From the NCBI RefSeq assembly GCF_003334385.1, contig NZ_QOWN01000111.1: 1,567 bases of DNA; one strand, written 5' to 3'. Positions 155 to 505 of the stretch are shown here, one piece after another. This DNA comes from Escherichia coli. Its GTDB lineage: Bacteria > Pseudomonadota > Gammaproteobacteria > Enterobacterales > Enterobacteriaceae. Within the stretch, counting starts at the first letter, position 1. The number at the start of each line of letters is the position of its first letter. A model generated the notes under the pieces. It had not been told where the DNA came from, did not search any database, and saw only the letters and a program-made list of their open reading frames with translations. A program made the position numbers and the translations under genes.

Positions 155-505
155 ATGAAGAAAAAATACGAACTGGTTGTTAAAGGGATAAATCATTACC
201 CGGATAAGATTACTGTTACTGTGGCACTGGAAATTGGTGGGTATCCGTCACTGTTGTTGCCAAATGTGGCGATTAGTCTTGACCGTACTGAAGGTGCCAC
301 GCTGGAGTTTTACGAAGCTGAGGCGAAAAAGCAGGCGAAGCAGTTTTTCATGGATGTTGCTGCCGGGTTATGTGAAGGGAACGAACCGTTGCCGGAAAAG
401 CGCCCCGTAATTTTAGAGGCGCAGAATGTATGGATAACCTACAAAGGAAATCTACCGGGAAGAATTACTGGTTCTCTGAAGACTCCACCGGAATCACAAC
501 CTTAA
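155..505 (+). CDS. ydfR: DUF1327-family protein (YdfR-like), unknown function, 116 aa
   Basis: Complete ORF in the track, ATG 155 to TAA 503-505, with a good SD just upstream. The product has no hydrophobic segment or signal peptide and is predicted soluble. The N-terminal sequence MKKKYELVVKGINHYPDKITVTVALEIGGYP and the position between holin and lysozyme match what I recall of YdfR in the E. coli Qin prophage (memory only). Confidence 0.8.
   Translation: MKKKYELVVKGINHYPDKITVTVALEIGGYPSLLLPNVAISLDRTEGATLEFYEAEAKKQAKQFFMDVAAGLCEGNEPLPEKRPVILEAQNVWITYKGNLPGRITGSLKTPPESQP

What the first reader, a model, noticed from the sequence alone, without database searches (positions are those of the whole stretch)
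155..505. Uncharacterised DUF1327 gene sitting between holin and endolysin
A soluble 116-aa protein of unknown function is translationally coupled to the holin (SD inside the holin's last codons, 4-nt gap) and lies immediately upstream of the endolysin. Its placement inside the lysis cassette rather than in a moron position suggests a role in lysis regulation, for example modulating holin or SAR-endolysin activity, but nothing in the sequence states the function.
Basis: partly seen in the sequence, partly recalled or inferred. Interest (0 to 1): 0.5.

Follow-up and report, generated by a model that had tools for sequence, protein, structure and literature searches.

The report
YdfR/DUF1327 gene between holin and endolysin
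The 116-codon gene is a real, already annotated member of the small Escherichia-only YdfR (DUF1327) family, an optional passenger at the holin-to-endolysin junction of lambdoid prophages; its function is still unproven, and the only experimental lead points to RNase E rather than to lysis.

Summary
Window 155-505 encodes a soluble 116-aa DUF1327/YdfR protein (Pfam E 1.2e-43). It starts 4 nt after the stop of a P21-type holin, with GGGGAGAG inside the holin tail, and ends 63 nt before a SAR-type lysozyme. The identical protein is annotated in RefSeq, and K-12 Qin has the same order (essQ-ydfR-rrrQ).

The family is tiny and essentially confined to Escherichia. Of 101 assessable loci, 97 place it right after a holin, and two holin families are involved.

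Position is weak evidence for a lysis role:
- In 933W-type phages the endolysin itself starts at the same 4-nt junction with the same Shine-Dalgarno (SD), so ydfR simply occupies the generic junction.
- Only about 30-40% of such cassettes carry ydfR.
- An antirepressor gene also sits inside these cassettes.
- Divergent copies lie after Rz or beside a tail gene.

The protein is modular. An acidic three-strand-plus-helix domain (residues 1-75) is followed by a short conserved tail; relatives add further modules. No significant fold or sequence match to known lysis regulators was found.

The K-12 homologue binds the catalytic half of RNase E and co-purifies with RNA (RNA Biol 2026). My best guess, at low confidence, is a late-expressed host-factor (RNase E) binder rather than a lysis component. 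This is a known family with moderate-to-low interest.

The parts
1..150 (+). 3' part (last 49 codons plus stop) of a P21-type class II holin (pinholin family)
   Evidence: PHROG 9876 and 20 'holin'. The full-length copy in L001 hits PF04971 at E 8e-33 and has a Met1/Met4 dual start.
140..147 (+). Shine-Dalgarno GGGGAGAG inside the holin's last codons. It serves whichever gene follows the holin.
   Evidence: Sequence. Conserved in nearly all loci. The same SD plus 4-nt gap precedes the endolysin in the ydfR-less phage Stx2a_F422.
155..505 (+). ydfR-family gene (DUF1327), 116 aa plus stop
   Evidence: Pfam PF07041 E 1.2e-43. Lies under RefSeq WP_033808946.1 'YdfR family protein' in a 99.9%-identical E. 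coli EC2 locus, where the ORF itself is 100% identical. dN/dS 0.26-0.42.
155..379 (+). Module A: conserved N-terminal domain (residues 1-75), three beta strands then a long helix, acidic
   Evidence: AlphaFold2 strands 5-14, 18-27 and 38-43, helix 50-73, pLDDT about 75-91. Nearly invariant YEL.V.G...DR.EG..LEFYEA motif. pI 5.7 here and 4.7 in K-12. 44% identical to K-12 YdfR over residues 1-78.
380..505 (+). Module B: conserved tail PEKRPVILEAQNVWITYKGNLPGRITGSLKTPP, then the short-form ending ESQP-stop
   Evidence: pLDDT below 50. Conserved in 81 loci, pooled dN/dS 0.42. Also found without module A in strain A34 and in P0144. Homology to long forms breaks after KTPP at about window 490.
506..568 (+). 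Spacer and SD-less AU-rich leader of the endolysin. Two GATAAAT repeats at 548-554 and 558-564.
   Evidence: CGATAAATCCTGATAAATATCC|ATG is conserved upstream of R in nearly all ydfR-bearing loci, but not in the ydfR-less F422 cassette. No significant RNA structure (z -0.8).
569..1102 (+). Endolysin R, T4-lysozyme family with a SAR-like N-terminus (RrrQ type)
   Evidence: PF00959 E 8.8e-23. PHROG 7 endolysin. 94% identical to K-12-type RrrQ-like lysozymes in phages.

Best explanation
Window 155-505 is an accessory late gene of Escherichia lambdoid phages (YdfR/DUF1327 family). It occupies the generic holin-to-next-gene coupling junction, so it is made together with the holin once late transcription starts.

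Its product is a small, soluble, acidic cytoplasmic protein. Its conserved beta-beta-beta-alpha domain (residues 1-75) most likely works as a protein-docking module on a host cytoplasmic factor. The best candidate is the catalytic N-terminal half of RNase E, to which the K-12 homologue binds through exactly this domain. The inferred effect is to tune RNA processing or decay late in infection. It is not part of the membrane and cell-wall lysis machinery.

A side effect that the sequence shows directly: its presence moves the endolysin off the holin's strong SD onto an SD-less AU-rich leader, which should change the holin-to-endolysin translation ratio.

Shown: family membership, position, optionality, modularity, purifying selection, lack of a transmembrane segment, acidic domain.
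Taken from the literature for a 44%-identical homologue: RNase E binding and RNA co-purification.
Inferred: that this allele does the same, and that this is its role in the phage.
For: - Family and fold: Pfam DUF1327. A confident three-strand-plus-helix N-domain and a disordered tail.
- K-12 YdfR residues 1-72 suffice for a two-hybrid signal with Rne(1-597). Strep-YdfR co-purifies Rne(1-598) and DNase-resistant nucleic acid. Overexpression is non-toxic (PMC13232886). The window protein is 44% identical over that same region.
- The acidic domain (pI 4.7-5.8) and the conserved acidic and aromatic residues (E6, E46, E51, E54, F52, Y53) fit a protein-binding surface that could dock on a basic RNA-binding surface.
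- Not lysis machinery: it is optional. The same holin allele and endolysin type work without it in 933W-type phages. Copies occur outside the holin-endolysin slot.
- Retained in active phages such as H-19B, BP-4795, Evi, Perceval and the PhiR isolates, with dN/dS 0.26-0.42.
Against: - The RNase E data are for a 44%-identical homologue with a different tail.
- They rest on two-hybrid and in vivo co-purification without nuclease treatment, so the contact may be bridged by RNA.
- YdfR overexpression changed few transcripts (PMC13232886).
- The near-absolute placement behind a holin, in two holin families, is what a lysis function would predict.
- Keio ydfR mutants appear in an envelope-leakiness screen.
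Confidence: 0.33

Rival explanations
1. Cytoplasmic lysis-timing regulator. YdfR acts in trans on the pinholin or the SAR endolysin (a soluble antiholin or pro-lysis factor). It would be analogous in position and solubility to P1 LydB, which is encoded right after holin lydA, or to T4 RIII.
For: - 97 of 101 assessable loci lie directly behind a holin, across two holin families.
- It is always co-transcribed, and SD-coupled or closely spaced.
- One divergent copy sits right after Rz, still within a lysis cassette.
- Keio ydfR is among the envelope-leak hits (PMC3879167 supplement).
- Precedents exist for soluble regulators: LydB has no transmembrane domain and overlaps lydA by 4 nt (PMC9025707).
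Against: - Absent from most cassettes with the same holin and endolysin, which still lyse, for example 122 of 124 Stx2a phage records.
- The holin C-terminal tail is identical with and without ydfR, and the HP1-type holin tail is unrelated, so there is no common cytoplasmic holin target.
- The mature SAR endolysin is periplasmic apart from about 6 residues.
- No homology to LydB (hhalign probability 0.1; BLASTP nothing). No DUF2730 and no transmembrane domain.
- Linkage is not phylogenetically independent in such a young, narrow family.
- The Keio phenotype can be explained by polar expression of rrrQ from the kan cassette (my inference).
Confidence: 0.25
2. Cargo of an accessory-gene hot spot. 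The holin-endolysin junction is a recombination slot, and YdfR has a role unrelated to both lysis and RNase E, for example anti-defence, host takeover or superinfection effects through an unknown target.
For: - The slot is highly polymorphic: empty, A, A+B, A+B+C, A+B+C+D or X+B+C+D, with products of 72-330 aa, plus unrelated opposite-strand ORFs.
- The distance from the ydfR ATG to the R ATG ranges from 308 to 1662 nt.
- Homology breaks fall at fixed module borders.
- The neighbouring R-Rz gap likewise carries ant.
- Domain-only copies occur beside a tail gene and after Rz.
Against: - No hit in PADLOC.
- No promoter of its own, so it is not expressed in the lysogen like typical defence morons.
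- There is no positive evidence for any particular alternative target.
Confidence: 0.25
3. Mainly a cis effect, or a decaying remnant. The protein has no important activity. The insert matters only because it uncouples endolysin translation from the holin SD, or it is a truncated leftover of the longer 268-330-aa forms.
For: - R loses the holin SD and gains an SD-less leader whenever ydfR is present.
- The window allele is a short form that ends just after the conserved KTPP border.
- One lineage carries a +1 frameshift in an A-run.
- K-12 overexpression has little effect (PMC13232886).
Against: - Purifying selection on both modules (dN/dS 0.26-0.42).
- The start codon and SD are conserved in about 95 loci.
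- Short forms are the commonest class and occur in plaque-forming phages.
Confidence: 0.1

Closest known systems
E. coli K-12 Qin prophage YdfR (b1555, P76160), in the order essQ-ydfR-rrrQ-rzpQ
   Same: Same Pfam family. Same slot, 4 nt after the class II holin stop. Same downstream lysozyme type. The N-domain is 44% identical.
   Different: K-12 YdfR is 103 aa, has a different C-terminal tail (no module B), and overlaps rrrQ (ATGA) instead of leaving a 63-nt spacer. RNase E binding was shown only for the K-12 protein (PMC13232886).
Phage P1 LydB (soluble antiholin encoded immediately after holin lydA)
   Same: A small protein without a transmembrane domain, encoded directly downstream of and coupled to a holin gene in a phage with a SAR endolysin (PMC9025707).
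   Different: No detectable sequence or profile similarity. LydB has a genetic lysis phenotype, while none is known for YdfR.
Phage T4 RIII (cytoplasmic antiholin that also binds ribosomal protein S1 and blocks RegB activation)
   Same: A small cytoplasmic phage protein connected both to lysis control and to an RNA-binding or RNase pathway (PMC9409239). It is a conceptual precedent for a lysis-cassette protein that binds an RNA-decay factor.
   Different: Not compared directly by sequence here. YdfR matches only 'unknown function' PHROGs. The phage type and holin are different.
Phage Mu gp25 releasin (DUF2730)
   Same: An accessory protein that acts with a SAR endolysin from the cytoplasmic side (PMC9239132).
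   Different: The releasin is membrane-tethered by an N-terminal transmembrane domain and belongs to DUF2730. YdfR has neither.
Small beta-beta-beta-alpha RNA- or ribosome-associated folds (dsRBD; M. tuberculosis Rv1738)
   Different: It lacks helix 1 of the dsRBD. The domain is acidic rather than basic. No Pfam dsrm hit. Foldseek matches are not significant.

Membership tests
DUF1327 / YdfR family (Pfam PF07041) | Significant match to the Pfam profile over most of its length | tested here: met
   E 1.2e-43, model positions 1-92 of 93.
DUF1327 / YdfR family (Pfam PF07041) | Conserved N-domain motif YEL[VI]VKG ... DRxEGxxLEFYEA | tested here: met
   Alignment A1 of 20 diverse members. E6, V21, E46 and E54 are invariant; Y5, L7, G11, R44, G47, L50, E51, F52 and Y53 are at least 90% conserved.
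DUF1327 / YdfR family (Pfam PF07041) | Typical genomic slot between class II holin and lysozyme in Escherichia lambdoid prophages | tested here: met
   89 loci have the same 4-nt gap.
P21-type pinholin / SAR-endolysin lysis cassette (context) | Holin of family PF04971 with dual start; T4-type lysozyme with an N-terminal signal-anchor-release domain; Rz spanin | tested here: inconclusive
   PF04971 E 8e-33 and Met1/Met4. PF00959 plus a weakly hydrophobic N-terminus and an E-x8-D-x5-T motif. Rz PHROG 13. Membrane release itself cannot be shown in silico.
Soluble antiholin of P1 LydB type | Homology to LydB | tested here: not met
   hhalign probability 0.1; BLASTP found no alignment.
Soluble antiholin of P1 LydB type | Delays holin triggering (premature lysis when mutated) | not testable with these tools
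   Needs lysis curves of a ydfR mutant.
Releasin (Mu gp25, DUF2730) | N-terminal transmembrane domain and DUF2730 profile match | tested here: not met
   The only significant Pfam match is DUF1327. Maximum hydropathy 1.18.
dsRNA-binding domain (dsRBD) | alpha-beta-beta-beta-alpha fold with basic RNA-contact regions; Pfam dsrm match | tested here: not met
Moron (autonomously expressed insert in a late operon) | Own promoter and terminator flanking the gene | tested here: not met
   No +-strand promoter-like site was found; the only +-strand terminator-like hit near the gene is a weak 6-bp stem inside it at 235-250, and none flanks it. It uses the holin-tail SD.
RNase E N-terminal-domain binding proteins (as reported for K-12 YdfR) | Physical binding to Rne(1-597) through residues 1-72 | not testable with these tools
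   Only homology of the mapped region could be checked: 44% identity over residues 1-78. Binding data are in PMC13232886.

The most novel reading that the evidence does not exclude
YdfR is a phage effector that links host RNA decay to the lytic endgame. It is made with the holin and docks through its acidic N-domain on the RNA-binding catalytic half of membrane-bound RNase E. There it alters processing of the late transcript, including the SD-less endolysin leader that always accompanies it. Lysis timing or Shiga-toxin-phage late gene expression would then be tuned through RNA turnover, a dual role reminiscent of T4 RIII.
Probability: 0.15. Interest if true: 0.6.

Novelty: already known. Interest (0 to 1): 0.3.

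Why it matters
The gene is carried by well over half of complete E. coli genomes, often in several copies. It is in most Stx1a and Stx2c converting phages but almost no Stx2a phages, and nobody knows what it does. If it modulates RNase E or lysis timing, it could influence burst timing and toxin release from Shiga-toxin prophages. It would also add a temperate-phage example to the short list of phage proteins that target RNase E. As it stands, this is a correctly spotted but already catalogued domain of unknown function.

Tried and rejected
Searches that found nothing useful:
- NCBIfam: no family for the protein.
- PADLOC: no hit for YdfR, its long form, or the neighbouring ORFs.
- PDB by sequence profile: nothing significant.
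- Foldseek against PDB and BFVD: no hit at E<=0.001.
- Rfam on the window: only sub-threshold noise.
- RNA folding of the ydfR-R spacer and the R-Rz gap: not better than shuffles.
- Module D of the long forms, searched for informative fusions: only Escherichia and Shigella hypothetical proteins without Pfam domains.
- Literature: 'DUF1327' gives one incidental paper, and 'ydfR' gives only the RNase E study plus screens.

Ideas rejected:
- dsRBD membership: the domain is acidic, helix 1 is missing, and there is no dsrm hit.
- LydB homology.
- Releasin membership.
- Classical moron.
- Holin-YdfR fusion proteins (P0029, P0083, P0134): single-copy frameshift or assembly artefacts.

Not attempted: linker-fusion AlphaFold 'complexes'. 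The tool reports no inter-chain error estimate, so the result could not be interpreted.

Full report
**Observation.** The window is the lysis cassette of an Escherichia lambdoid prophage. On the + strand it holds:
- the last 49 codons of a holin (1-150);
- the 116-codon ORF in question (155-505);
- a 177-aa lysozyme (569-1102);
- a 221-nt gap (1103-1323);
- a 37-codon hydrophobic ORF (1324-1437);
- the start of an Rz spanin (1439-1567).

The ORF matches Pfam DUF1327 at E 1.2e-43. The full-length holin in a 99.9%-identical E. coli EC2 prophage is PF04971, 'P21 holin S'. The lysozyme is PF00959 with a weakly hydrophobic Gly/Ala-rich N-terminus, consistent with a SAR endolysin. The protein has no transmembrane segment. 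It is under purifying selection: median pairwise dN/dS is 0.26 for the N-domain, and pooled values are about 0.40 and 0.42 for the two modules.

**It is already catalogued.** In EC2 the gene is annotated as 'YdfR family protein' WP_033808946.1, and the ORF there is 100% identical. The K-12 Qin prophage has the same order: essQ, a 4-nt gap, ydfR, a 4-nt overlap, rrrQ, then rzpQ. The family is very small and narrow:
- Only 55 cluster representatives (50% identity) among 1.84 billion proteins reach E<=0.001.
- Among one genome per species for 100,044 species, only E. coli, E. albertii and two MAG contigs (probably mis-binned) carry it.
- Within E. coli it is common: at least 6,735 places in 3,159 of 5,426 complete genomes.

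**Anatomy.** The family is modular.
- Module A (residues 1-75 here) is the conserved core, and can be the whole protein (72 aa in phage Evi).
- Module B (PEKRPVILEAQNVWITYKGNLPGRITGSLKTPP) follows in the window protein.
- Many relatives continue with a coiled-coil-like module C and a roughly 115-aa module D, giving products of 148-330 aa.
- Strain A34 has B+C+D behind a different N-terminus.
- C+D also occur as a separate ORF.

The window allele is a short form. Its homology to long forms stops right after KTPP (about window 490) and resumes about 25-30 nt before the endolysin start. AlphaFold2 gives a confident three-strand sheet plus long helix for residues 5-73 (pLDDT 75-91) and no confident structure for module B. 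Module A is acidic (pI 5.7 here, 4.7 in K-12), and its best-conserved residues are acidic or aromatic.

**Position.** I examined 102 loci from IMG/VR, species genomes, GenBank phages and assemblies.
- 97 have a holin directly upstream. The gap is exactly 4 nt in 89 and 3 nt in 3.
- Four follow a different holin family (PF16080, HP1 type, 101 aa) with their own GGAGAG (16 nt by the script; 18 nt between the called genes).
- One is cut by a contig end.
- The distance from the ydfR ATG to the endolysin ATG varies from 308 to 1,662 nt.
- The sample is dominated by close relatives, so these are not independent events.

Three facts limit what position can tell us.
- In ydfR-less 933W-type cassettes (Stx2a_F422), the endolysin itself starts 4 nt after the same holin stop behind the same SD. 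The 'translational coupling' is therefore the generic holin junction, which ydfR has occupied. Whenever ydfR is present, the endolysin sits instead behind a conserved SD-less leader, CGATAAATCCTGATAAATATCC.
- The gene is optional. Class II holins occupy 16,762 places in E. coli genomes, against at least 6,735 for ydfR. Among phage records with this endolysin type, ydfR is in 41 of 46 Stx1a, 15 of 15 Stx2c but only 2 of 124 Stx2a converting phages.
- The cassette tolerates non-lysis genes: an antirepressor sits between R and Rz in many of these phages.

The most divergent domain-only members lie elsewhere. One sits 24 nt after an Rz-like spanin. Another sits 28 nt upstream of a lambda gpL-like tail gene, with no holin nearby.

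The only experiments on the family are in Göpel et al., RNA Biol 2026 (PMC13232886).
- K-12 YdfR was recovered three times in a two-hybrid screen, as residues 1-72.
- The full-length protein interacts with Rne(1-597).
- Strep-YdfR co-purifies Rne(1-598) and DNase-resistant nucleic acid.
- Overexpression is non-toxic and changes few transcripts.
- The authors note that a contaminant could explain the RNA. No nuclease-treated pull-down was done for YdfR.

The window protein is 44% identical to K-12 YdfR over exactly that region.

The Keio ydfR mutant is listed among CPRG envelope-leak hits in the supplement of PMC3879167. I think this may be polar expression of the downstream lysozyme from the kan cassette; that is my inference and is untested.

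**Weighing.**
- *Lysis regulator.* The arguments for this are the positional fidelity across two holin families and the precedent of soluble regulators. P1 LydB has no transmembrane domain and is encoded 4-nt-overlapping after lydA (PMC9025707). T4 RIII is another. The arguments against are optionality, an identical holin tail with and without ydfR, an unrelated tail in the HP1-type holin, no homology to LydB or releasin, and the out-of-cassette copies.
- *Host-factor (RNase E) binder.* The arguments for this are the only wet-lab data, the acidic protein-docking character of the conserved domain, and the precedent that T4 RIII, long called a cytoplasmic antiholin, binds the RNA-binding domains of ribosomal protein S1 and blocks RegB activation (PMC9409239).
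- *Ranking.* RNase E/host-factor binder 0.33, lysis regulator 0.25, unrelated hot-spot cargo 0.25, cis-only or remnant 0.1. None is established.

**Novelty and score.** The gene, its family name and its position are already in the databases, and the arrangement is visible in K-12, so the finding is 'already known' as an uncharacterised family. Three points are added here:
- the junction it occupies is the generic holin-endolysin junction;
- it is an optional, modular, Escherichia-restricted insert with rare copies outside the slot;
- the available evidence points at least as much to RNA metabolism as to lysis.

Interest is moderate to low (0.3). A clean deletion and complementation experiment in an inducible prophage, plus a nuclease-controlled RNase E pull-down, would settle the question.

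Noticed in passing
window 1193-1225 (within the R-Rz gap 1103-1323): A strong terminator-like hairpin (15-bp stem, A-run before and U-run after, so it looks bidirectional) sits inside the lysis cassette between the endolysin stop and Rz. The first 86-157 nt after R are conserved in about 320 phage records. The same gap carries the antirepressor gene ant in many Stx phages, so this may be the scar or boundary of an insertion hot spot.
   Followed up: partly
window 1324-1437: A 37-aa hydrophobic ORF (MKGIEVETPASLDLTRAAAFAIRIVAIAVLVWAIRWW) with GAGG 9 nt upstream, whose stop lies 1 nt before the Rz ATG. It matches PHROG 4493 (unknown function, E 5.5e-16) and recurs in about 13 of the 84 loci, each time a few nt upstream of Rz where Rz is present. 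It may be an uncharacterised small membrane protein of the lysis cassette.
   Followed up: partly
window 506-568 (repeats at 548-554 and 558-564): The endolysin has no Shine-Dalgarno. Its AU-rich leader carries two GATAAAT repeats and is conserved in nearly all ydfR-bearing loci. In ydfR-less 933W-type cassettes R uses the holin-tail SD instead. No stable RNA structure is predicted.
   Followed up: partly
related loci L008-L019, L091, L093: The holin-endolysin slot is a polymorphic, modular locus. YdfR occurs as A, A+B, A+B+C and A+B+C+D (72 to 330 aa). C+D also occur as a separate roughly 185-aa ORF. Strain A34 has B+C+D behind an unrelated N-terminus. None of the extra modules has a Pfam, PHROG-function or PADLOC assignment.
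   Followed up: partly
L087 3244-3540 (-), L093 3693-4049 (-), L100 3465-3725 (-): Several loci carry a small opposite-strand ORF (86-118 aa; PHROGs 25324, 1853 and 2572, all unknown function) between ydfR and the endolysin. These are reverse-oriented inserts inside the late lysis operon.
   Followed up: partly
L100-L103 (about 3170-3200 in L100): In the lineage that follows an HP1-type holin (PF16080), ydfR is split into 72-aa and 107-aa ORFs by one extra A in an A-run (GCGAAAAAAACAGG). The same sequence was seen on 10 contigs from different samples, so it is a real frameshift allele rather than a read error.
   Followed up: partly
L097/L098 (CP075169.1, a 6.44-Mb chromosome) and L099: The most divergent domain-only DUF1327 genes are not in the holin-endolysin slot. 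One is 28 nt upstream of a lambda gpL-like minor tail gene in what looks like a prophage remnant. The other is 24 nt downstream of an Rz-like spanin.
   Followed up: partly
L085, L086: Two MAGs labelled Collinsella sp. and Bacillota bacterium contain contigs with an E. coli-type holin/ydfR/lysozyme cassette at 79-91% protein identity. These are most likely binning contamination.
   Followed up: no
phage records: The presence of ydfR tracks Shiga-toxin phage type: 41 of 46 Stx1a and 15 of 15 Stx2c converting phage records have it, but only 2 of 124 Stx2a records do. This probably reflects phage lineage, but it was not analysed with a phylogeny.
   Followed up: no
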